The notes below the pieces were generated by a model, which was not told the origin of the DNA, ran no database searches, and worked only from the letters and a program-made list of their open reading frames with translations. From a virus (lineage: Duplodnaviria > Heunggongvirae > Uroviricota > Caudoviricetes): a stretch of 64,000 nt of DNA. The stretch is taken from the IMG/VR virus record IMGVR_UViG_3300021400_001110; one strand, 5' to 3'. Positions 1,633 to 64,000 of this stretch are shown piece by piece. How positions within the stretch are numbered: the stretch's first letter is position 1; the number at the start of each line of letters is the position of its first letter. The translations under genes were made by a program, and so were the position numbers.

Positions 1633-2067
1633 ATGGTAACCAGAAAACTTAGCACTATTACTCCTGGATTTGATGTCAATTCTAAAAGTACTTTTCCTTA
1701 TTGGTTTGCTCATTGGTGTGCATTTCAAATGACTGCTCTTAATCTTGGTATTTGGAAACCAAAGTATTTATTTCATGATTGGGAAAAGCCTTGGTTACGA
1801 CTATTCTTACCTTATGAGAAAGTACAAAAATGGCATCGAGAGCATAGAAGACATCATGTTAATTATGGAGAAATTCACGGTTGGGATAAGGTTGACTGGG
1901 AAGAAATGTTAATTGACTGGGAATGTTGTCATTATACTAAGATAGCACAGCCTCTTAATGCTCCCGAAACTTTAGTAGAATTATTTTCAAGTAAACCTTA
2001 CTTTAGAATAATGCAAGATAATATATTACCTTTATTACAAAGAATTATAAAGCATGAAAATCGTTAA
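1633..2067 (+). CDS. hypothetical protein
   Basis: 144-aa ORF, ATG start. Confidence 0.45.
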   Translation: MVTRKLSTITPGFDVNSKSTFPYWFAHWCAFQMTALNLGIWKPKYLFHDWEKPWLRLFLPYEKVQKWHREHRRHHVNYGEIHGWDKVDWEEMLIDWECCHYTKIAQPLNAPETLVELFSSKPYFRIMQDNILPLLQRIIKHENR

Positions 2068-2284
2068 AAGTATTATTATATTTCTTTTAATAAGTATTTT
2101 ATGTGCTTGTTCTACTACTGATGATACTAATACTTGTCCACCAGAAATTGTAGAAAAAAGTACGTATATAGAAGTAAAACCCTTAATTTATAAAGGTCAT
2201 ACTTTTCTATGGTTTAGATCAAAACACGGAAAAGGATTTGGGGGAGTTTCTCACGATCCAGAATGTAAAAAATGTAACAAATGA
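2054..2284 (+). CDS. small putative lipoprotein
   Basis: N-terminal signal peptide with lipobox-like LISILCAC; Cys-rich C-terminus. Confidence 0.4.
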   Translation: MKIVKSIIIFLLISILCACSTTDDTNTCPPEIVEKSTYIEVKPLIYKGHTFLWFRSKHGKGFGGVSHDPECKKCNK

Positions 2285-2472
2285 CTTGGAAAAAAACTTT
2301 CTGTGTTCTAGGATGGTTAATATTATTCATTCTAGGACTTGACTTAGCCTTTGGATGGCTTAACTTAGCTAATACTGTAGCTAACATCGCTGGAGCATTT
2401 CTAGCATTATTCATAATTTTTATTTCTTTTAAAACAAAATGTTTCACTAATTTAAAATTTTGGAAAAAATGA
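2281..2472 (+). CDS. small membrane protein
   Basis: 63 aa, two hydrophobic helices; ATGA overlap with upstream gene. Confidence 0.4.
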   Translation: MTWKKTFCVLGWLILFILGLDLAFGWLNLANTVANIAGAFLALFIIFISFKTKCFTNLKFWKK

Positions 2473-3257
2473 AAAAACTTTTAGGAATTTTATTTGTTGC
2501 TCTACTTACTTTAATGAGTGTAACAAGTTGTGAGCGTATTGACGCAGGCTGTGAAGGTATTGAAGTCTCTTTATATGGAGACAATCGTGGTATTGGCGAA
2601 GTTAACCTGGTAACAGGTTGGGTATGGTATAATCCTTGGACAAAACAGATATATGAGTATCCTACTTATGTCCAGACTGTTGACTATGAACCATTTACAA
2701 TCAATGCAAAGGATGGTCCGCTCTTTACTATTGATCCTAATGTAAATATTAAGGTAGCTGATGGTAAGGCTCCACAAGTATTTAAGAAATATAGAAAAGA
2801 ACTAAATGATGTAATTCATGGTCCAGTTCTTAAATATATTAAGGATGCTTGTCGTATTGAAATTAATAAATTTACAACTGACCAAATTGTTTCTAATCGA
2901 GAGGCTGTTGAAAATGCTATCGAGAAACGTTTAACTGCTTCCCTTGCTAAAGAAGGATTTATATTGGATCAATTTACGTCTGGACTTACTTATCCAGAAT
3001 CTATTGTAGAATCCATTAATGCTAAAACAAAAGCAATTCAAGAAGCACAACGTGTAGAAAATGAAGTAGCTAAGACTAAGGCTGAAGCTGAAAAGAAACT
3101 TATTGCTGCTAGAGCAGAAAAAGAAGCTAATGAACTTAGAACTCAAGCTTTGACTCCTGCTATTCTACAACAAATGTGGATTGAAAAATGGGATGGTAAA
3201 CTTCCTGTTACAATGGCAGGAGGAGATTCTAAACTCCTTTTGAATTTACCTAAGTAA
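2469..3257 (+). CDS. SPFH (band-7/prohibitin/HflKC-like) domain lipoprotein
   Basis: Track start 2460 is TTG; first ATG is 2469. Signal peptide + lipobox LTLMSVTSC. Long SPFH-like core with a coiled-coil Ala/Glu/Lys-rich tail. Confidence 0.55.
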   Translation: MKKLLGILFVALLTLMSVTSCERIDAGCEGIEVSLYGDNRGIGEVNLVTGWVWYNPWTKQIYEYPTYVQTVDYEPFTINAKDGPLFTIDPNVNIKVADGKAPQVFKKYRKELNDVIHGPVLKYIKDACRIEINKFTTDQIVSNREAVENAIEKRLTASLAKEGFILDQFTSGLTYPESIVESINAKTKAIQEAQRVENEVAKTKAEAEKKLIAARAEKEANELRTQALTPAILQQMWIEKWDGKLPVTMAGGDSKLLLNLPK

Positions 3258-3262
3258 AAATT

Positions 3263-3502
3263 ATGATGCTAGGAATGTTAGTAAGTATTATTATCACTGC
3301 ATTATTGCTATATGTAGCATTTAATACAAAGTTCAATAATGAACGTTTACCTGTATGGACTTATTATGTAATTGCTTTACTTACTTTAGCTAGTTGGAAA
3401 TCTGCTATTGTTATGCTAGGTCTTTGCATATATAGTCTTTATAAAGGTATTAAGTCTGGAGATGTTGATACATTATCATGGATTGAGGACTTGTTTGATT
3501 AA
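3263..3502 (+). CDS. small membrane protein
   Basis: 79 aa, two predicted TM helices. Confidence 0.4.
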   Translation: MMLGMLVSIIITALLLYVAFNTKFNNERLPVWTYYVIALLTLASWKSAIVMLGLCIYSLYKGIKSGDVDTLSWIEDLFD

Positions 3503-3933
3503 TGTCAGATGAAGTTTATAGGTTTTTGAATTTTGAAGAAGCTGAAGTCTATAAAAATGAAGATTGGTTTTTTAAAGAAGCTAAACTTCTTCCAGATTTT
3601 GGCTGGGCAATTCCAGAAAAAAGATTACTCAAGGTGGTAGATAAGAAAAAGTTTTATAGGCAGAAATTACAAGAACTTATAGATGAGTTTGAATTCTGGA
3701 AGGTAGAAAATGTCATGGAAGTCTTAGAATGGACATGGGCTATTGGCTATCCGAAAAAAGATGACATGATAACAGTAGTTTGGGGTCTTTATGATAGTAT
3801 AGAAAATAGAATTCTAAGGGGAGAATATTGTTTTTGTGCTACAGGAGGTTTTAAACTTACTTTTAATCCAGATGAGGATAACGAACTATCTCTTGTATTT
3901 GAAGCTGTAACCAATTCTGTTTATGGTAATTGA
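3502..3933 (+). CDS. hypothetical protein
   Basis: 143-aa ORF, ATGA overlap upstream. Confidence 0.45.
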   Translation: MSDEVYRFLNFEEAEVYKNEDWFFKEAKLLPDFGWAIPEKRLLKVVDKKKFYRQKLQELIDEFEFWKVENVMEVLEWTWAIGYPKKDDMITVVWGLYDSIENRILRGEYCFCATGGFKLTFNPDEDNELSLVFEAVTNSVYGN

Positions 3934-21323: not shown

Positions 21324-23033
21324 ATGGAAATAATGAAAGTAACTAATCGAGACGGAATTTTAGTAGAGTTTAACTCTGAAAAAGTAAAAGCAGCTATAGA
21401 AGCTGCATTTAAAGAAGCAGATGAAGAAGTTAATAAACTTATAATTGGAAAGATTTATAGTGATATATCATTCTGGGATGAAATGAATATTGAAGATATT
21501 CAAGACCAGATTGTTGAAGTTTTAACTAATTGGGGATATGATAATGTAGCAAGAGAATTTTTGTTCTATAGATGGAGCCATGAAAAAGCAAGAGAACTTG
21601 CACGTTCTAAGCAAGCCTTTATAAATAGATATAAGAATTCTTCCAATACTGCTAATGCAACTATTGATGATAATAGTAATGTTGGCACAAAGAATATTGG
21701 AGTATTAAATGCTGAAGGACATAAACAAGAAAATATTCTTGTCAGTCGAGTAATGATAAAAGACAAGTTAAAAGAACTTTATCCAGATTTTGATGCTAAA
21801 CAATATGTAAGAGACCTAAAAAGTCATATTATATATAAGCATGATGAATCTGGATTTATGGGAGCAATTGCACCTTATTGTTGTTCTATCAGTATGTATC
21901 CATTCTTACAAGGTGGAATCAAAGGAATAGGTGGTTTATCTGCTAAGCCTGAGAATATTGACAGTTATTGTGGAATGTATATTAATCTTATATTTGCAGT
22001 ATCTTCTCAATTTGCTGGAGCTGTAGCTACTCCAGAATTCTTATTATACTTTGACTATTTTGCACGTAAGCAATGGAAGGATGATTATTATTTGCATCCA
22101 GATGCTGTTACTACTACTGATATAGTAGCAAGAAAGATGACTATACGTAAGCAAATTCATCAGTATTTCCAACAGGTCATATATTCTATAAATCAACCTG
22201 CTGCAGCAAGAGGTATGCAAAGTGCTTTTGTCAATTTTGCTTATTTTGATAAACCTTTCTTTGAAAGTATGTTTAGCAATTTTATGTTTCCAGATATGAC
22301 TTCTCCTAAATGGGAAAGTCTAAACTGGTTGCAAAAAGAATTTATGCAATGGTTTAATAAAGAAAGAGAAAGATGTATTCTTACTTTCCCTGTAGAATCA
22401 TTTGCCCTAATTTATAAAGACGGAGAATTTGTTGATAAAGAAAATGCTGAATTTGTTGCTCAAGAGTATGCGAGGGGCCATAGCTTCTTTACTTACATCT
22501 CAGATACTGCGGACAGTCTATCCTCATGCTGTAGACTTAAGAATAAGGTGGATACTAAGGAGTTTAATTTCACTAATGGAAACATGGGTGTGGAGACAGG
22601 CTCAAAGAGTGTTATCACGCTTAACCTAAATAGAATTATTCAAGATTATAAAGTAGAATATTGTCAGAAATATGGAGCAGAAATTTATAAAACTGATCCA
22701 AAACAAAAGGAATATTTGAAAAATTATTTAAATAAAATTCTTGAAAGAGTATATAAATATCATATAGCGTATAATGAATGTCTATGGGATATGTATGAAG
22801 CTGGACTACTTCCAGTTTATTCTAATGGATTTATTTCTTTAAATAAGCAATATCTCACTATAGGTTTAAACGGACTTAATCAAGCCGCTGAATTTTTAGG
22901 AATTAAGTGTAACGTTAATCAAGATTATCAAGACTTCTGTCAAACTATCTTTGGTATCATAAAAGAGTCCAACACTAAAGCTAATGGTAAGTATTTTGGA
23001 CATAAAGTAACATTTAATACTGAATGTGTCCCT
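21324..23033 (+). CDS. nrdD: anaerobic ribonucleoside-triphosphate reductase NrdD, exon 1
   Basis: Class III RNR-like core (..GSKSVITLNLNRI.., ..FNTECVP..). Exon predicted to end at the T of the P codon at 23033; the track ORF reads on into the intron to TGA at 23130. Confidence 0.7.
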
Positions 23034-24063
23034 AGACTCAGTGGGGACGTTAAACCTCTATTGATTGACTTGGAAATCCCTAAGGGACAACAAGGCGCAA
23101 GCAGAAACATTTGTACGTTTCGTGCAGCGTGAACGACTAAGTATAGAGGCTCCTTAAGTTATTGTAGTGATACAATTCTTTTGGAAGGTGCGATAGTCTG
23201 AACTCTATGGTAACATAGAGAGGAAATTTGAAGAAATTTCCCATCCAAACTTGCTTTCTCGTAAAACACTTATTAAATTTGTTCTATGTAATAAATGAAA
23301 ATGTTATTTATAATTTTTATGAAAATGGAACAAGAAGTACGTAAGTGTTGTATTTGTGGAGCGTCAGTAGGAAATGGAACTGACAAAGTTTATAAATTTT
23401 CAGATGGAAATATGTATTGCAAGAAACATTATCTTCAGATGTATAGACATGGGCATATAATAGAGAGAACTATATATGATCCGAATGAATATATAGAATA
23501 TGAAGATTACGCTGAATGTATATGTTATGATAAATCTGGAAATGAGAAAGGAAGAGTAAAAATAGATCTAGATAAAGTTTCTTTACTAAAAAAGCATAAA
23601 GTGTACATAAGAAAGCAAAATGATAAAATTTATGCAGCAATTTCTATTGATAGTAAAAAAGTAATGCTTCATAGATATTTAATGGAAATAATTAATGAAG
23701 AATATTCTATTAATAAAGTTGTCGACCATATAAATGGAGATTCTTTAGATAATAGGATTTCTAATTTAAGAATTTGTACACATAAACAGAATATGCAAAA
23801 TATAAGAAAGAAAAATAAAATAGTAGGAGTATCTAAAAGTCCTAATAAAAATAATAGATGGATTGCAAGAATAATGCATGATTATAAAACTATTAATTTA
23901 GGATACTTTGATACCTATGCAGAGGCTGCTTTAGCTCGTATACAAAAAGAAAAAGAAATTTGTGGAGAGTATGGGCCTAACAAGGATTTATTTTACGTTT
24001 TGGATCTCCCTTCTCCATTGGAAGAATTACAAAAATTCGTTCCAGAAGGGGTGTAACAGAATG
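23034..24063 (+). mobile_element. group I-type self-splicing intron in nrdD carrying a homing endonuclease
   Basis: Interrupts NrdD between conserved ..FNTECVP and AESLAAKNY.. (gapless match to the E. coli block FSLYSTPSENLCDRF). Exon ends in U, intron ends in G (24063). Length 1030 = 1 mod 3, which restores the frame. Contains an independent HNH ORF. Confidence 0.6.
23295..24056 (+). CDS. HNH homing endonuclease with AP2-type DNA-binding domain (intron-encoded)
   Basis: HNH motif DHINGDSLDNRISNLRICTHKQN; AP2-like YKTINLGYFDTYAEAALA; Cys-rich N-terminus. Confidence 0.65.
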   Translation: MKMLFIIFMKMEQEVRKCCICGASVGNGTDKVYKFSDGNMYCKKHYLQMYRHGHIIERTIYDPNEYIEYEDYAECICYDKSGNEKGRVKIDLDKVSLLKKHKVYIRKQNDKIYAAISIDSKKVMLHRYLMEIINEEYSINKVVDHINGDSLDNRISNLRICTHKQNMQNIRKKNKIVGVSKSPNKNNRWIARIMHDYKTINLGYFDTYAEAALARIQKEKEICGEYGPNKDLFYVLDLPSPLEELQKFVPEGV

Positions 24064-24528
24064 GCTGAAAGTTTAGCTGCTAAGAATTATAATTGGGATA
24101 AAGCAGATGGATATTGGGTGCCTGATGATACCAATTTGTATGCATCTTATATATTTAAACCAAATGATAAATCTATAAGTATTCTTGACAAATTTGTATT
24201 ACATGGTAGAAATTATATAGGAGACTTCTTAGATGGAGGTAGTGCAGCTCACATTAATCTTGCTGACCATCCCAGCTATGAACAATGCAAGAAACTTATG
24301 AAGTTTGCTGCAGAAGAGGGATGTCAATATTTTACCTTTAATATTCCTAACTCTGAATGTCAAGATTGTGGATGGATTGGTAAACGTCCTACAGATACTT
24401 GTCCAAAGTGTGGTTCTCATCATATAGATCAATATGATAGAATTATTGGATATTTAACTAGAATAAAAAACTGGGCAGATGCTAGAAAAATAGAACAAAC
24501 AACTAGAGTATATAGTAAGGTCGACTAA
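24064..24528 (+). CDS. nrdD: anaerobic ribonucleotide reductase NrdD, exon 2 (Zn ribbon + glycyl-radical domain)
   Basis: CQDCGW...CPKCGS zinc ribbon; glycyl radical motif RIIGYL near the C-terminus. Confidence 0.75.
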   Translation, partial: AESLAAKNYNWDKADGYWVPDDTNLYASYIFKPNDKSISILDKFVLHGRNYIGDFLDGGSAAHINLADHPSYEQCKKLMKFAAEEGCQYFTFNIPNSECQDCGWIGKRPTDTCPKCGSHHIDQYDRIIGYLTRIKNWADARKIEQTTRVYSKVD

Positions 24529-25927: not shown

Positions 25928-26291
25928 AGGAATTGAAAGTTTTGAATCTAAACTACAGAAAGCTATTTTAGAATTTATAGCTACTAATGTAGATATGTCT
26001 GAAGATGTAGAAATTGAAGAAATAGATGATCATGTAATTAGTATAAATGATATAAATTTTTATGTAATTACAGACGCGGAGGAAAAAGGTATTTTAGCTG
26101 AATATAATAAAGAAAGATTTGATGCTTTCTTTGATAATCTTAATACCACACAACTTCAATATGTAAATGAAGATTTATGGGATGAAGATTATGCCTTTAC
26201 AGATTTTGAAGAGTGGTTACAAGAAGAAACTCAATGGACCGTAGATGATAAAGATTATTATGGTAATTATAATTTCTATGAAATTCACTGA
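25893..26291 (+). CDS. acidic hypothetical protein
   Basis: 132-aa ORF (alternative ATG at 25920). Confidence 0.4.
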   Translation: MVINLKLKNMIKGIESFESKLQKAILEFIATNVDMSEDVEIEEIDDHVISINDINFYVITDAEEKGILAEYNKERFDAFFDNLNTTQLQYVNEDLWDEDYAFTDFEEWLQEETQWTVDDKDYYGNYNFYEIH

Positions 26292-26748
26292 TTATGAAGT
26301 AGTTTTATCAGAAATACCTGATGAAATTACTCTTGCCATAAATATAAGTAACTGTCCTTATCATTGTCCAGGTTGTCATAGTCCTCATCTATGGAAAGAT
26401 ATTGGAACAGAAATGACTATAGGAAATCTTAAGGAGCTTATAGACAGAAATAAAGGAATTACTTGCGTAGCATTTATGGGAGGCCCTATAATGGAAGTGG
26501 CTACTGCTTCTTTTATTATACATTATTATTATCCCAAATTAAAAACTGCTTGGTATACTGGATCTTCTACACTTCCTATAGATTGGCATGATCTCGACTA
26601 TATAAAGATAGGTAGATATATAAAGGAACAAGGACCTCTAAATAATCCTAAAACTAACCAACGTTTATATAAAATAGATAAACTTACTTATCCAGGATTT
26701 AAAGGTATGGAAAATATAACTCCAAAATTATGGAAAAACATAAAATAA
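26278..26748 (+). CDS. nrdG: anaerobic RNR activating protein NrdG (radical SAM)
   Basis: CPYHCPGCHSPHLW (Cx3Cx2C) about 26 aa from the start; 157 aa, typical NrdG size. Start moved to ATG 26278 from track 26245. Confidence 0.6.
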   Translation: MKFTDYEVVLSEIPDEITLAINISNCPYHCPGCHSPHLWKDIGTEMTIGNLKELIDRNKGITCVAFMGGPIMEVATASFIIHYYYPKLKTAWYTGSSTLPIDWHDLDYIKIGRYIKEQGPLNNPKTNQRLYKIDKLTYPGFKGMENITPKLWKNIK

Positions 26749-59261: not shown

Positions 59262-61987
59262 ATACAATTAATGTCTAAGAATAATTTAGTCTATCTCATG
59301 AGTTCTGCTATTCCAACCATAGGAGAATTGTCTAATTGTTCTTTAACCCTAGTTATAATACTAGAATATGGCTTTCCTAATATAAAGTAGGCTCTATCTA
59401 AATAGAATCTATGAAGTTTCTATTCAGTTCCTTCTCCAGGAAGAGCGGGAAGAATATCATCCATTTTTTCATATTTATTAAATCCTAAATTCTTATAATA
59501 TACTGGGAGTTTATCTTCATACATAATTACTACGGGATCTTTCTAACCTTTTAAGCTAGATACTACTCTAGCCTAAGAAATAAATAAGTCCATAGCAGTA
59601 AACTCCATCATACTATTAATTTCTGCCTCAGAATAATCGTGTTCTCCTACATACTTTAAATATCTATTAATTATATTATCACTTTTATTATCAAATTCCT
59701 TTATAAATCCTTCAAATATCTTAGTAAGACGGTCAGAACCATATTGATTTTTATTAACTATTAAGTTATAAATAGCAAACCAATCAGATATTGATAAATT
59801 ACCTATTTTATAGTTAGATAACTGTTTTAGACCTTTACTAAATCTTGATAATTGAACTCTTGTATAAGAAGAATCCGAAGAAATATTTACATTAGTTTTC
59901 CAAATAGGAACATCTCTATCATTACCTCTCTATAAGGATTGAATAAAAGAATTTCTACGAATTGTTTCTTTAGTAGCATCATCCCAATCTCCATAAGTTC
60001 CAGCTTTTAGTCCTGGAATTACTACATTTTCAAAATAGTATTTAAATGAGGCTATTCCTTCTTCTGAATCTAATGTTAATATTCCGTTAGTCTTATTTAC
60101 TATAGTTCTGTTATGGTCTAATATAGAGCCTTTAATTGGGAATTTAAAGTTTCCATCCACAATAAACTGTTGCATCATTAAAGATGAAGCAAATCCTAAA
60201 ATTCTTGAATAATATTTATCATCAAGATAAAGTTTAGGACATTCTTTAGCTATTTTATTAAGACAAGCATCAAGAATTCTACTCTTTACAGAGAATTGAT
60301 TTACAGTGCATTCACCTCCAAGTAATGTAAACATACTTTTAAAATGAGGAAGTTTAGGAGCTATAGCAAATATATTTAGAGTAACTTTTAGCTTATTATA
60401 GTATTCAGCAACTCGTTCTTGATACTCTTCATCCTATAACCACCTAATTGGATCAAATGTTCCTCCTGCTATGTCTTGATATCTAGAATCAACAGCGTCT
60501 TTAAGATTTCCATCTGCATTAGTAATACCCATATCTTTTTCTCTTTTGGTTATGAGTTTCTTTATCTTCTATAAAGTGCCCATTAAATCTTCAGCTTTAC
60601 CTGGAAGACCTTGGTTAATACTTAGAAGACGTCCAAAAGAACTAAATTCATCAGAACCTTCTAATATATGTTTAAATTCCTAAATATCAGCTAAAGCTTC
60701 AGATCTCTATTGTGCTGTTAAGTTACTAGGAATAACATTCTTTAGTAAAGATAATTTATTTCTAGAGCCAGCTACTTCATATCCATCTTCATCCTCATAA
60801 TGGTCTACATCCTTATTAGTTTCATAGTTCTTTAGATATTTTTCTATAGCTTCAAGTGCTTCATCAACACGTAATTCTTGTCCTAAGAATATATTAGGAT
60901 CTGATAGAGAGTCTATCCATGAGATAGCATCACTAGTCATGAATTTAACTATATCATTAATATCATAACCAAGAGTCATCAAGAATAGATAACATTTAGC
61001 TAATTTACTACCTGCATTGATTTTAGCAAGAATAAGCTCTTTAGCGTTATCAGTAGCAGCACTAATCATCTAACTTATAAGAATATCAATAGGAATACCA
61101 GAATGTAATTTTCCAGCTTCTATGTAATTTATAAGATTTAAATCAGAAAGCTTTTCAGTATTAACATCTGGAAGTATAGTTGAAGTAACTTGTCTCATTT
61201 GTGGAATTTTATTTACTTCCTTACTTCTTCCAGCTATTCTACTTGTTGTAAATTCAAATCTACTATAATCAAAGTCTGTATTTTCTACAGGAGTTATTTC
61301 TCCCGTAGCATTTACTGTATAGTCAATACCTTCTTTAGCCTTATTTATAGTATCATTTAAATAATACATCCACATAAATGCTGCTTTCTAACCAGTAGCA
61401 GAAATAGCAATAACATTCTTACCAGTCATATTCTAATACTACATAGTATATACAGAAAGTGGATTCATAAGAGTAATTTCTAAAGCCTCAGCACCTTTTG
61501 GGGACTTATCTGCAGCTTTTCTTAAATCTTCCATATCTACAGGAACATAAGAATCAGCAGCATTTCTAACGTTCTATATAGTATTTTGGATATGCACAGA
61601 TATAAAGTTTCTAAGAGCTGCAGCTTTTAAATCTGCAGGTAATTTAGTAGCATTATGATTATTAAGTTTCTCAATTATTTCTGGAGTAGCTCCCTTTACG
61701 AATTTATTATCTCCTAGTTTATTAAGAATACGAGCATAAGCAAGTACTTCTTTAGCTCCCCATTCATTAATAAGCGCTGGTTCAGGACTATTATCTAAAA
61801 CCTCTCGCGCCTATTTAATAATATTTGCTTCTTCTGAAATATCTACTCCATTTTCAGATTCTTCAATAATTACTCCATTCTTTGGAAGAGGTAGATACTC
61901 AGATGCTTGTATAGTTTCTAAACTATTATAGTTAAATAAGCTAGACCATCCTATATATTGTCCATTATCATCAAATGCAAGTCCCAT
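59258..61987 (-). CDS. late gene L3, ~909 aa, TAG read as a sense codon (function unassigned)
   Basis: Single frame 59258..61987. ATG 61985-87 after in-frame TGA 62027-29; TGA 59258-60 overlaps the L2 ATG (ATGA). In-frame TAG at 59291, 59543, 59573, 59930, 61070, 61388, 61433, 61439, 61574, 61811. Confidence 0.65.
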
Positions 61988-62318
61988 TATATAAGCCTTA
62001 TCAATATCCGTTTTACCTTTTATTTTTCAATAAAAGACTGACTATATCATCACTCATTATTGAGTGCCTCCCACTTCGGAATTTTTTCCTACTCCCTTCC
62101 GGGATAGTCGATGAACTTTCGTCCTTATAAAATTATACATACTAGTTTATATGTAATAATTTTATCTAGGATGCTTAGCTGCGGATTGTCCAATTTCTTT
62201 ACCTTTTTACTTTACCTCAAATAGTTACTTTGAGCCTTTAGATGTATTTCTACTCTAAATTAGTAGTAAAGAACTCTAAGGAGTTTCCCGCAATTCAAGA
62301 GGTTTAATGACTACAATA
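61988..62318 (-). other. 331-bp non-coding gap inside the late operon (small hairpins; candidate promoter or small RNA)
   Basis: No frame is open under either the standard or TAG-as-sense code; cccGGAAggg and cUUCGg-type hairpins on the transcribed strand. Confidence 0.3.
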
Positions 62319-64000
62319 TTATTTATAGTCAGAACCTTGAAGCCAGGTCTGCCAATGGCTTACATAAGCTAAGTTACTTCCTTCAGCTGTATATCCTACT
62401 TGTCTCATATTCATAAATGATTGTAAGGTTTGAGCAGGAATACGTGAAGCTGTATAATATTGAGATCTTAAGAATGAATAATATTTCTTTTTATTAAGTC
62501 TATCCTTTAAAGCAACAGTTCTATCATTAAGAATCTTAGCTATAGAACCATTATCCTTCTATTTTATAAATTTGATAGTATCAGTATCTGCATCATAAGA
62601 AAGGTCAGGTCTTTTAAATTCCTTTGCTTCCGGAATCTTACTAAATTGTTCAGAAATTGCTTCCAAGTATCTAGTAAGATGCATATCATAACCAAAATAA
62701 ATGTATTTTCCATTCTTATTCTTATGTCCAAAGCCTTCTAATATTCTTTGAACTCTAGTTAAATTGGAACGTTTTACTTGTTGGTTATTAACTGTAAGAG
62801 TTTCATATGAATCTGCCTCATATATCTCTTTAAACAACTCCTATATATAGGTATTAGCATCTTGATCAATAGCTTGTTCTGGAGTTAGAGTATGTCCATT
62901 TTCTAAAGTAATATCTCTTGGAGTAATAGTTCTTTTTAGTTCTGGGATATTAACATTAAGAACTGTATGTCTACGTCCATGGTCTTTTACTTCATGCTTT
63001 GTAACAAATTCTACATACTCTACAACTTCTCCGTTTATAAACTAGAATCTTCCATCCTTTTCAATCTTTTCATGAGTATTTTTATCATAATAGTACTTAC
63101 CTTCCTAACTAAAAGCAAGATCTGGTCTTCTTATATCTCTACCAATTTTAAATAAAATCTTCTATTCTTTATTGGTAGCATATACTTCATTTACTATCAG
63201 AGGATCATTAACAGCTTTTCTATGTCTATCTTTCCAATAAGTCAATTTATATTGAATATCAGGAAGATTACCATCTTCATCAGCTACAGTAGATTCAAAA
63301 TGTCTATCTAAAGACAAATAGGTATGATGACCGTTAGCTTTAGTCATTATCATATCATAGAAATCTGGGTCTACACTTTGATGTACTTGTCTTATATTTC
63401 CAGCTTTTTTAGGACCATCTTTTATAACATCTATAATGGATTGATCTACATCTACCCCAAATCTAGACTAATAAATATTAGACATTATAAGTTCAGCAGG
63501 AGTATTATGTAATTTAATTGGAATTCCATCATATGTACCACTATCAAGTTCATCAAGAAGTTGCTAAGTGTTAGCATATTCTTTTACTCCTTGAGCTTGT
63601 AGTCTAGATATATAATTAAGTATTCTAGCTTGTTTCTCCCCTTTCTGAGATTCAGCAAATTTTCTAAGCATATGAATACTATTAAATATGTTGTTAGTTC
63701 TATCAACCATAACTTCTTTAATAGTTCCATCTTCCTATACCATAGGAGTCTTAGCTTTATATTCCCACCAAATTTTAGTTGGAGCTAAGTTACGAGCTAT
63801 ATGTAAGTTCTTTCTAAATTCTAATACTTTTACTGTAACGGGTACTCCATTATTCTTTGCAGTAAGTCTATCCTACATAAACGCTCTAGGATCAGCTTTA
63901 AATAGGTAATAGTCAGATATTGAATCAAGAGATATATTTTCCCAATGTTGCTTATTATTTACTTCTACAAGTACTCCAACATTATCTGTAGGCATGAATT
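62319..64000 (-). CDS. late gene L4 (3' part; continues beyond the window), TAG read as a sense codon
   Basis: Single frame from the window edge to TAA 62319-21 (..FMNMRQVGYTAEGSNLAYVSHWQTWLQGSDYK*). In-frame TAG at 62559-61, 62841-43, 63162-64. Confidence 0.6.

What the first reader, a model, noticed from the sequence alone, without database searches (positions are those of the whole stretch)
23034..24063. Self-splicing intron with an HNH-AP2 homing endonuclease splits the anaerobic RNR gene nrdD; junction predicted to the base
The class III RNR large subunit is split. Exon 1 is the ORF 21324.. . The C-terminal zinc-ribbon/glycyl-radical part (CQDCGW..CPKCGS, RIIGYL) lies 1 kb downstream in another frame. 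Aligning the conserved NrdD block (E. coli FSLYSTPSENLCDRF) gives a gapless match FNTECVP|AESLAAKNY across a junction at 23033|24064. Three independent features agree with that junction: the exon ends in U, the intron ends in G (24063), and the intron length of 1030 is 1 mod 3, exactly what is needed to restore the frame. The intron carries its own HNH+AP2 endonuclease gene (23295..24056), which ends 7 nt before the 3' splice site. The standard-code ORF of exon 1 runs 33 codons into the intron, which hides the split. T4 also has an intron in nrdD. Here the homing endonuclease is of the HNH-AP2 type.
Basis: partly seen in the sequence, partly recalled or inferred. Interest (0 to 1): 0.6.

Follow-up and report, generated by a model that had tools for sequence, protein, structure and literature searches.

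The report
Mobile self-splicing intron in phage nrdD

Summary
nrdD is split at 23033|24064. The joined 724-aa protein is a full-length NrdD (TIGR02827, 693.6 bits, one stretch). Intron-less relatives carry exactly the joined sequence.

The 1,030-nt insert has group I anatomy:
- P1 with a U·G pair at the 5' splice site, a 5-bp P10 and a terminal G.
- P3 to P9.1, including the P3/P7 pseudoknot with a bulged P7.

It belongs to a family found in 103 IMG/VR stretches. Covariation across 44 members is strong: 98% of cells paired, against 34-46% in shifted controls. At least 12 other phage nrdD genes carry the intron at the same codon, and their guide sequences covary with their exons.

The ORF at 23295-24056 is an intact HNH endonuclease. 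The AP2 domain is supported only at family level.

The intron is 95.5% identical to that of a phage whose exons are only 75-79% identical, which indicates recent mobility.

Caveats:
- Rfam's group I model detects neither this intron nor 17 relatives.
- The T4 nrdD intron sits at a different codon, has extra helices and carries a GIY-YIG enzyme.
- Splicing itself is not shown.

Verdict: real, a new member of a known kind, of modest interest.

The parts
21324..23033 (+). nrdD exon 1 (570 codons: ATP-cone plus most of the NrdD barrel). The last 6 nt, GUCCCU (23028-23033), form the 5' strand of P1.
   Evidence: Pfam ATP-cone and NRDD profile positions 10-414; tblastn to intron-less homologues; P1 pairing.
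23034..24063 (+). Group I-type intron, 1,030 nt. It begins AGAC and ends with the terminal G of ...GUAACAGAAUG.
23038..23048 (+). Internal guide sequence. UCAGU (23038-23042) pairs with exon 2 GCUGA (P10). GGGGAC (23043-23048) pairs with exon 1 GUCCCU (P1), with G23043·U23033 at the splice site.
   Evidence: Sequence. In 12 same-site introns the guide sequence changes together with the exon sequence.
23055..23241 (+). Ribozyme core. P3 is 23055-61/23143-49. P4 is 23069-72/23091-94. P5 is 23077-80/23084-87. P6 is 23095-98/23127-30, with P6a at 23101-08/23117-25. P7 is A23133 plus GACUA 23135-39, pairing with UAGUCU 23194-99, with C23134 bulged. P8 spans 23150-23187 with loop GUGA. P9 is 23203-09/23214-20 with loop GUAA. 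P9.1 is 23222-29/23234-41.
   Evidence: RNAalifold on a MAFFT alignment of 44 family members predicts P3, P4, P5, P6 and P8 on its own. Pair counts: 98.2% of cells paired against 34-46% in slid controls, and 278 double-change cells against 35-73. The outer P7 pair is A-U in 24 sequences and G-C in 20, with no exceptions. The MFE fold recovers P1, P3-P6, P8, P9 and P9.1. The family model R1 scores 139 bits here.
23295..24056 (+). Homing endonuclease gene (253 aa). From the N-terminus: a Cys-rich, LIM-like putative zinc module; an HNH_3 nuclease motif (aa 140-168); an AP2-like DNA-binding region (about aa 175-220). It lies 3' of the ribozyme core, in the peripheral P9 extension.
   Evidence: Pfam HNH_3 8.7e-11 and PHROG 99 3.4e-41. 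The family profile matches I-HmuI 1u3e (E=0.0019) and the AP2 domains 7wq5 (E=0.0041) and 7et4 (E=0.057). Pfam AP2 hits 28 of 47 homologues. The protein is 97-98% identical to the endonuclease in L007 and to P0001.
24008..24050 (+). 3'-terminal hairpin inside the last codons of the endonuclease gene. The stem is CCCUUCU (24008-14) with AGAAGGG (24044-50).
   Evidence: In 12 same-site introns, 5 of 8 pairs show compensatory double changes, and 90% of cells pair against 46-60% in slid controls. The hairpin is retained in the ORF-less derivatives L088, L112 and L163.
24053..24063 (+). Conserved 3' end GUAACAGAAUG. It contains the endonuclease stop codon UAA (24054-56) and the terminal G (24063).
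   Evidence: GUAACAG is invariant in the 12 same-site introns and is present at the 3' end of many ORF-less family members.
24064..24528 (+). nrdD exon 2 (154 codons plus stop), carrying the Zn-ribbon CQDCGW..CPKCGS and the glycyl-radical motif RIIGYL. Its first 5 nt, GCUGA, form P10.
   Evidence: Pfam NRDD profile positions 415-560; alignment to 4coi.
26245..26748 (+). nrdG, the activating enzyme of NrdD. This is context: the spliced NrdD has its partner nearby.
   Evidence: TIGR02826 1.3e-38, though below the curated cut-off (132 against 151.7 bits).

Best explanation
Bases 23034-24063 are a mobile group I intron in the nrdD gene of a crAss-like gut phage.

How splicing most likely works:
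1. In the pre-mRNA, the intron's guide sequence (23038-23048) pairs with the end of exon 1 (P1, with U23033·G23043) and with the start of exon 2 (P10).
2. The compact core directly downstream (P3-P9.1, 23055-23241, with no P2 and no P7.1/P7.2) forms the guanosine-binding P7 pocket.
3. An external guanosine attacks after U23033.
4. The terminal G24063 then docks, and the exons are ligated to give ...GUCCCU|GCUGAA... This restores a 724-aa NrdD whose glycyl-radical and Zn-ribbon domain lies entirely in exon 2.

The 253-codon HNH(-AP2-like) endonuclease gene sits in the 3' peripheral extension, between P9.1 and a conserved terminal hairpin. That hairpin is formed by the gene's own last codons, and its UAA stop is part of the conserved GUAACAG motif.

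The endonuclease presumably cuts intron-less nrdD alleles near TTTAATACTGAATGTGTCCCT|GCTGAA during co-infection. Repair then copies the intron in (homing).

Shown here: the anatomy, the covariation, the exact junction, presence/absence polymorphism, and horizontal transfer. Inferred: catalysis, endonuclease activity and the endonuclease's target.
For: Junction:
- The Pfam profile is contiguous across it, 414|415.
- The joined protein matches TIGR02827 in one stretch, 693.6 bits.
- It aligns without a gap to 4coi.
- Intron-less cr116_1 and L230 carry the joined sequence.

Splice-site rules:
- The U·G pair, the terminal G and P1/P10 are present in the window.
- They are present in all 12 same-site introns, with guide sequences that track their exons: GUCCCU/GGGGAC, ACACCGU/GCGGUGU, ACACCAU/GUGGUGU, GUGCCU/GGGCAC.

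Core:
- RNAalifold predicts P3-P6 and P8 independently.
- 98.2% of cells pair, with a covariation score of 0.528 against 0.085-0.14 in slid controls.
- P7 has a perfectly covarying outer pair next to a bulge.
- The terminal hairpin covaries.

Link to a proven ribozyme:
- In 37 kb of T4 DNA, the best hit of the family model is the nrdD (sunY) intron core (23.6 bits, E=0.002).
- The model also hits the 3' half of the Rfam-recognised intron at 62 kb.

Mobility:
- The intron is 95.5% identical to that of L007, while the exons are 75.1% and 79.4% identical.
- The intron is about 70% identical in L008 and L009, whose NrdD is only 38-51% identical at protein level.
- Endonuclease states range from intact to a C-terminal remnant.

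Precedent:
- Dense group I introns in crAss-like phages with 145-192 kb genomes (PMC7886860).
- nrdD genes split by group I introns, with metatranscriptome-supported splicing, in gut jumbo phages (PMC12880540).
Against: - Rfam RF00028 gives no hit on the intron at E<=10, even on a 281-nt slice.
- No RNA data were available, so splicing is not shown.
- The window copy has a C·A mismatch in the basal P8 helix (C23152/A23185) that L007 lacks.
- The exon 1 reading frame stays open for 32 codons into the core. Ribosomes could therefore interfere with folding.
- P7 (GACUA/UAGUC) and part of P6 are invariant partly because the family was collected with a pattern that includes them.
Confidence: 0.92

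Rival explanations
1. Genes in pieces. A free-standing HNH endonuclease has split nrdD into two separately translated genes whose products assemble, as in Aeromonas phage Aeh1, where the endonuclease gene mobE splits nrdA. No RNA splicing occurs.
For: The exon 1 frame ends at a stop (23130-23132). An in-frame ATG (24061-24063) directly precedes exon 2. A functional RNR split by an endonuclease gene without an intron is documented (PMC3653736).
Against: - A covarying ribozyme core and guide sequence flank the endonuclease gene.
- Homologues with only a 278-356-nt ORF-less insert at the same codon (L112, L088, L163) have no endonuclease to blame.
- In the phase-1 homologues, the NUG triplet before exon 2 is out of frame.
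Confidence: 0.03
2. Decayed intron. The element is a group I intron that no longer splices efficiently, so nrdD in this phage is a pseudogene or is poorly expressed.
For: There is a C·A mismatch in P8 relative to L007. The intron has no P2. There is no Rfam hit.
Against: - Both exons are intact and conserved, and nrdG is retained.
- Every other helix is intact.
- The near-identical L007 intron sits in a diverged but intact nrdD.
- The endonuclease ORF is intact.
Confidence: 0.04
3. Intein or group II intron.
For: Relatives have other insertions in nrdD, near aa 400. In L229 that insert is in frame and looks like an intein (by eye only). L002 and L003 also have inserts there, of unknown kind.
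Against: - The insert changes frame (1 mod 3) and has many stops in the exon frame.
- There is no Hint domain and no reverse transcriptase or maturase.
- The RNA architecture is P1-P10 with the P3/P7 pseudoknot.
Confidence: 0.005

Closest known systems
Phage T4 nrdD (sunY) group I intron with I-TevII
   Same: The host gene is the same, the size is almost the same (1,033 against 1,030 nt), and the endonuclease ORF is likewise placed 3' of the catalytic core. J8/7, the P7 3' strand, J7/9 and P9 are similar: AUAGUCUGAACUGCAUGGUGACAUGCAG against AUAGUCUGAACUCUAUGGUAACAUAGAG. It is the best hit of the family model in T4 DNA.
   Different: The insertion site is near codon 172-181 of 605, not 570|571 of 724. 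T4 has about 35 more nt between P3 5' and P3 3' than the family model. From my own knowledge these are the IA2 helices P7.1/P7.2; here only 3 nt separate P7 from P3'. The T4 endonuclease is GIY-YIG, not HNH.
Phage group I introns that encode HNH endonucleases: I-HmuI (SPO1 DNA polymerase), I-TevIII (RB3 nrdB), I-TwoI (Twort nrdE)
   Same: The design is the same: a group I intron in a nucleotide-metabolism or replication gene carrying an HNH enzyme. The family profile matches I-HmuI 1u3e over the HNH motif (E=0.0019). PMC3653736 and PMC1865063 describe these cases.
   Different: The host genes, sites and DNA-binding modules differ. This enzyme has an AP2-like module and an N-terminal Cys-rich module.
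Group I introns of crAss-like phages (Delta and Zeta groups) and of gut jumbo (Jug) phages
   Same: The ecological and host setting is the same. Contigs carrying this intron family include several of 165-195 kb, within the 145-192 kb reported for the intron-rich crAss family. Jug phage nrdD is split by group I introns with HNH genes, and splicing there was seen in metatranscriptomes (PMC7886860, PMC12880540).
   Different: In the passages read here, those papers locate introns through endonuclease domains or subtype covariance models. They do not describe this site, this structure or this family. I could not check whether any of their introns is the same one.
HNH-AP2 endonucleases of phages and cyanobacteria (Pfam HNH_3 plus AP2 architecture)
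   Same: HNH_3 is followed by an AP2-like beta-sheet/helix region (...VGVSKSPNKNNRWIARIMHDYKTINLGYFDTYAEAALAR...). 28 of 47 homologues hit Pfam AP2, and the family profile hits WRI1 and TEM1 AP2 domains.
   Different: The window protein itself is below detection for Pfam AP2. It has an additional N-terminal CxxC...C..H module (a weak LIM/eL24-like match).

Membership tests
Group I self-splicing intron | P1 helix between the 5' exon end and an internal guide sequence, with a U·G wobble pair at the splice site | tested here: met
   GUCCCU (23028-33) pairs with GGGGAC (23043-48), with U23033·G23043. All 12 same-site homologues keep the U·G pair, and their guide sequences covary with the exon.
Group I self-splicing intron | Terminal G at the 3' end of the intron, and P10 pairing of the 3' exon next to P1 | tested here: met
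   Base 24063 is G. GCUGA (24064-68) pairs with UCAGU (23038-42), 5 bp, directly next to P1. The terminal G is present in 12 of 12, with P10 of about 2-6 bp.
Group I self-splicing intron | Conserved core P3-P8 in the canonical order, with the P3/P7 pseudoknot | tested here: met
   RNAalifold predicts P3, P4, P5, P6 and P8. 98.2% of cells pair, and 17 of 32 pairs show double changes. P7 is GACUA/UAGUC plus a covarying A-U/G-C pair.
Group I self-splicing intron | Guanosine-binding P7 with a bulged nucleotide beside a G-C pair | tested here: met
   The arrangement is A23133-U23199, C23134 bulged, G23135-C23198. The bulge identity (C or A) changes together with the flanking pair in all 44 sequences. 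Guanosine binding itself was not tested.
Group I self-splicing intron | Match to the curated covariance model Rfam RF00028 | tested here: not met
   There is no hit at the gathering threshold, or at E<=10 on 1,301 nt and on 281 nt. Seventeen family loci also give no hit. The same model does find the other intron at 62018-62334. Subtype-specific models could not be run.
Group I self-splicing intron | Exon ligation restores an intact host gene | tested here: met
Group I self-splicing intron | GTP-dependent self-splicing | not testable with these tools
   No RNA data. The only precedents are from related gut phages (PMC12880540) and from T4.
Subgroup IA2 (T4-type phage introns) | Extra helices P7.1/P7.2 between P7 and P3', and a P2 helix (criteria from my own knowledge of the Michel-Westhof classification) | tested here: not met
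   Only 3 nt (AGU, 23140-42) separate P7 from P3', and only 6 nt separate P1 from P3. Other members of the family do appear, by eye, to have a P2 hairpin.
HNH (His-Me finger) homing endonuclease | HNH catalytic motif | tested here: met
   Pfam HNH_3 8.7e-11 at aa 140-168, VDHINGDSLDNRISNLRICTHKQNMQN. D144, H145, N157 and N166 are invariant in 47 homologues. The profile matches I-HmuI.
HNH (His-Me finger) homing endonuclease | Site-specific cleavage of the intron-less allele | not testable with these tools
   Indirect only: the intron is far more conserved than the exons between phages, and intron-less alleles exist.
AP2 DNA-binding domain | Match to Pfam PF00847 or to solved AP2 domains | tested here: inconclusive
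   The window protein gives no hit at E<=10. 28 of 47 homologues hit at E<=0.1, the best at 3.6e-6. The family profile hits 7wq5 at E=0.0041 and 7et4 at E=0.057.

The most novel reading that the evidence does not exclude
The intron may represent a compact structural type of phage group I intron that current curated models do not cover. Its features are:
- No P2 in this branch, and no P7.1/P7.2.
- An invariant P6 (GCGCAAGCA...UGCAGCGU).
- A 3'-terminal hairpin and a GUAACAG motif that also encode the C-terminus and stop codon of its endonuclease.

Rfam RF00028 misses it entirely, and a 2025 intron database was seeded from RF00028 hits (PMC11835236). The family has nevertheless reached the same nrdD codon in phages of Bacteroidota-associated gut communities and of a Desulfobacterota host. 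Its insertion register differs by one nucleotide between lineages.
Probability: 0.25. Interest if true: 0.45.

Novelty: new member of a known kind. Interest (0 to 1): 0.3.

Why it matters
For annotation, nrdD in this phage should be recorded as one spliced gene, join(21324..23033,24064..24528), not as a truncated ORF plus an orphan fragment.

More broadly, routine Rfam scanning misses a widespread phage intron family (103 IMG/VR stretches). Intron counts in crAss-like and other gut phages are therefore probably underestimates.

The set of same-site introns shows several stages of the homing cycle: intact, TGA-recoded, truncated and remnant endonuclease genes, alongside intron-less alleles. The copy in the cultured Nitratidesulfovibrio phage SRB7757 offers a system in which splicing and homing could be tested. 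None of this changes how group I introns are understood.

Tried and rejected
- **Rfam scans.** I scanned the whole window, then 22900-24200, then 23020-23300, then 17 related loci. None gave a group I hit on this family. I treat this as a limit of the model, because the structural and covariation evidence is strong.
- **Megablast against GenBank phages.** The nrdD region gave no match. Distant blastn of the 261-nt core found only unannotated Lak megaphage and Desulfovibrio phage records.
- **Pattern ATAGTCYGAACTCTAT in IMG/VR.** It returned 120 or more stretches. By my own estimate (not computed) a 16-mer is short enough for many of these to be chance matches, so I did not use them systematically.
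- **A wrong first reading, corrected.** I first took the endonuclease genes of L008 and L009 to be broken. Each has a single in-frame TGA at the conserved Trp position, which fits TGA=Trp recoding.
- **Partner for GUAACAG, or a P9.0 helix.** I looked by eye. UCUG/CAGA would pair in the window but not in L008-type sequences (UCCG). This stays unresolved.
- **Helix between the sequence just after P9.1 (CAUCC) and GGGGUG.** The register was not consistent between homologues, so I dropped it.
- **Host gene of the second intron.** PHROG search of the ORF fragments around 62 kb gave no hits.
- **Nature of JGI sample 3300041579 (DNA or RNA).** A literature search for the sample number found nothing. 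L230 therefore counts only as an uninterrupted allele, not as a spliced transcript.
- **Searches for further copies in the window.** An HMM of the endonuclease family run on the six-frame translation found no second copy. The family model R1 found no second intron of this family.

Full report
**What is in the sequence**

The ORF 21324-23132 encodes an ATP-cone plus the first roughly 410 profile positions of NrdD. The ORF ending at 24528 encodes the rest. If exon 1 is cut after 23033 (...GTC CCT) and exon 2 begins at 24064 (GCT GAA...), Pfam NRDD covers profile positions 10-414 and 415-560 with nothing missing or duplicated. The joined 724-aa protein passes the NCBIfam equivalog TIGR02827 in a single stretch, 693.6 bits against a cut-off of 568. 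It also aligns without a gap over the junction to the Thermotoga NrdD structure 4coi: FNTECVP|AESLAA against FNIEQVPAEKAA.

**The junction is exact**

The nearest annotated relative is the uncultured crAss-like phage cr116_1, with 65.6% NrdD identity. Its nrdD is uninterrupted and reads TTTAATACTGAATGTGTCCCT|GCTGAA, identical to the two window exons joined at 23033|24064. A closer relative (93% amino-acid identity, JGI contig L230) is also continuous there. The first base of the intron differs from the first base of exon 2, and the last base of exon 1 differs from the last base of the intron. No other pair of splice sites can therefore give this product.

**The RNA has group I anatomy**

- Nine nucleotides into the intron, GGGGAC (23043-48) pairs with the exon end GUCCCU. 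This places U23033 opposite G23043, the hallmark U·G pair.
- The five nucleotides just upstream, UCAGU (23038-42), pair with the first five bases of exon 2, GCUGA (P10).
- Downstream, in canonical order, come P3, P4, P5, P6/P6a, the P7 5' strand, P3', P8, the P7 3' strand, P9 (GUAA loop) and P9.1. All lie within 23055-23241, upstream of the ORF.
- The joining regions resemble the Rfam consensus shown for the other intron. This comparison was made by eye: AUUGA...GGAAA, CAA, GUGAACGACUA, GCGAUAGUC.
- There is no P2, and only 3 nt lie between P7 and P3'. The intron therefore lacks the P7.1/P7.2 helices of T4-type IA2 introns.

**Relatives and covariation**

The core motif GTGCAGCGTGARNGACTAA occurs in 103 IMG/VR stretches. 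I aligned 44 non-redundant cores with MAFFT (A1).

- RNAalifold, given no structure, predicted P3, P4, P5, P6 and P8. Seventeen of its 27 pairs show compensatory double changes.
- With P7 added as a pseudoknot, 98.2% of 1,406 cells form standard pairs, against 34-46% when the partners are slid by 1-3 columns. There are 278 double-change cells against 35-73, and the covariation score is 0.528 against 0.085-0.14.
- GACUA/UAGUC and part of P6 are invariant, partly because my fishing pattern contained them.
- The outer P7 pair was not constrained on its 3' side. It is A-U in 24 sequences and G-C in 20, with no exceptions, next to a bulged nucleotide. That is the classical arrangement of the guanosine-binding helix.

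**Link to proven ribozymes**

A covariance model of the family (R1) scores 139 bits on the window. It weakly hits the 3' half of the other intron in the window, the one Rfam recognises. With filters off, its best hit in 37 kb of T4 DNA is the core of the experimentally proven T4 nrdD (sunY) intron (23.6 bits, E=0.002).

**The same intron at the same codon elsewhere**

tblastn shows nrdD split at 570|571 by a member of this family in these loci:

- L007
- L008
- L009
- L010
- L016
- L035
- L062
- L088
- L095/L105
- L107
- L112
- L163
- the cultured Nitratidesulfovibrio phage SRB7757 (L229)

In the 12 introns whose ends I extracted, the exon always ends in U opposite a G, the intron always ends in G, and the guide sequence changes with the exon: GUCCCU/GGGGAC, GUGCCU/GGGCAC, ACACCGU/GCGGUGU, ACACCAU/GUGGUGU.

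In L010, L088 and L095 the Pro codon does not end in U. There the splice site lies one nucleotide further on, which would make the next codon UGY (Cys).

**The endonuclease**

The 253-aa ORF hits Pfam HNH_3 and PHROG HNH families. It has at least 256 homologues in metagenomes. The family profile matches the HNH homing endonuclease I-HmuI.

The window protein itself does not reach Pfam AP2. However, 28 of 47 homologues do, and the profile matches the plant AP2 domains of WRI1 and TEM1 at the expected place. The 'HNH-AP2' label is therefore reasonable at family level.

The last codons of the ORF form a hairpin (24008-14 with 24044-50) whose stem covaries in the 12 same-site introns. The stop codon lies inside the invariant GUAACAG motif, which also ends many ORF-less family members. 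The short derivatives L088, L112 and L163 (278-356 nt) have lost the ORF but keep its last 25-35 codons, exactly the part that forms this hairpin.

**Mobility**

Between the window and L007 the intron is 95.5% identical, while exon 1 and exon 2 are 75.1% and 79.4% identical. The first 60 nt of exon 2 are also highly similar. L008 and L009 have NrdD proteins only 38-51% identical to the window's, but introns about 70% identical in nucleotides. Intact, truncated and remnant endonuclease genes are all seen, and so are empty sites. Together this is the expected picture of a homing element moving among phage nrdD alleles.

**Rivals**

- *Intein.* Excluded by the frame shift and the stop codons.
- *Group II intron.* Excluded by the architecture and the lack of a reverse transcriptase.
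- *Genes in pieces.* This split-gene reading, as in the nrdA gene of Aeromonas phage Aeh1, deserves mention. Exon 1 runs to a stop at 23130-32, and an in-frame ATG (24061-63) happens to precede exon 2. It does not explain the covarying ribozyme and guide sequence, or the ORF-less inserts at the same codon.
- *Decayed intron.* A non-splicing copy is possible but unlikely. The only blemish is one C·A mismatch in P8.

**What is known**

- Group I introns with HNH genes in phage RNR genes are classical, and nrdD was the most often split RNR gene in a 2013 survey (PMC3653736).
- Jug phages have nrdD split by group I introns, with splicing seen in metatranscriptomes (PMC12880540).
It sits near codon 172-181, encodes the GIY-YIG enzyme I-TevII, and has extra sequence in its core.

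**What is mildly new**

- Rfam RF00028 is blind to this whole family. A recent intron database was seeded from RF00028 hits (PMC11835236).
- The 3' end serves both as RNA structure and as the endonuclease's C-terminal coding sequence.
- The insertion register differs by one nucleotide between lineages.
- The intron occurs at the same codon in phages of very different hosts.

**Verdict**

It is a new member of a known kind. Interest 0.3.

Noticed in passing
window 62018-62334 (-): A second group I intron, which Rfam does recognise (RF00028, 70.1 bits, E=9.8e-16). It lies between fragmentary minus-strand ORFs (62559-62837 and 61070-61375) that have no PHROG match. The host gene was not identified.
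   Followed up: partly
window 24061-24063: The last three intron bases form an ATG in frame with exon 2. In homologues the equivalent triplet is UUG or GUG, and in the phase-1 introns it is out of frame. This is probably a coincidence, but it could permit independent translation of the glycyl-radical fragment from unspliced RNA.
   Followed up: partly
window 23034-23132: The exon 1 reading frame continues 32 codons into the intron, through P1', P3, P4, P5 and P6, and stops at a UGA inside the conserved GCGUGAAC (J6/7). L016 and L107 stop at the same UGA. L010 and L095 have a stop spanning or just after the splice site. Translation running into the core could compete with folding.
   Followed up: no
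L008 (intron 2727-3716), L009 (intron 2732-3716), L095 (intron 1833-3032): intron-encoded endonuclease genes: Each endonuclease ORF has a single in-frame TGA at a conserved Trp position (KNKK[TGA]VARIM against NNRWIARIM; PNE[TGA]I against RNEWV). This indicates TGA=Trp recoding in those phages. The window copy uses TGG, and no tRNA gene was found in the window.
   Followed up: partly
L010 2769|3324, L088 2007|2333, L095 1832|3033: In these nrdD genes the same intron sits one nucleotide further 3' (after CCR-U, phase 1), supported by P1 and P10. The spliced codon 571 would be Cys (UGY) instead of Ala or Gly. This could reflect intron sliding, or an independent insertion with co-conversion.
   Followed up: partly
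L002, L003, L035, L095/L105, L112, L229 (near NrdD aa 400); L112 (near aa 298); L200, L208 (aa 586|588): Related nrdD genes carry further insertions at other positions. In L229 the insert near aa 400 is in frame and looks like an intein. nrdD is a hotspot for several mobile elements, but the window's gene has only the one insertion.
   Followed up: no
L229 (PV062637.1, Nitratidesulfovibrio phage SRB7757), about 2844-3769 of the locus: A phage whose record names a cultured host strain, Nitratidesulfovibrio vulgaris ATCC 7757 (Desulfobacterota), carries a member of this intron family at the same nrdD codon (P1 GUGCCU/GGGCAC). The record is unannotated. It could serve as an experimental system.
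   Followed up: partly
window 23152 / 23185: A C·A mismatch in the basal P8 helix of the window intron. L007 has a perfect CUCC/GGAG there. An alternative register, UCC/GGA, is possible.
   Followed up: no
window 23295-23330: The endonuclease ORF has three in-frame ATGs before the conserved CCICG motif (M1, M3/M9, M11), and homologues are variable at the N-terminus. The true start is uncertain.
   Followed up: no
IMG/VR contigs behind L006, L008, L009/L013, L015, L017, L026, L062, L066, L079, L088: Several contigs with this intron family are 165-195 kb long. That is within the genome size reported for the intron-rich crAss-like family, which suggests the window comes from that group. Its nearest annotated NrdD, however, belongs to the 101-kb Steigviridae phage cr116_1.
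   Followed up: no
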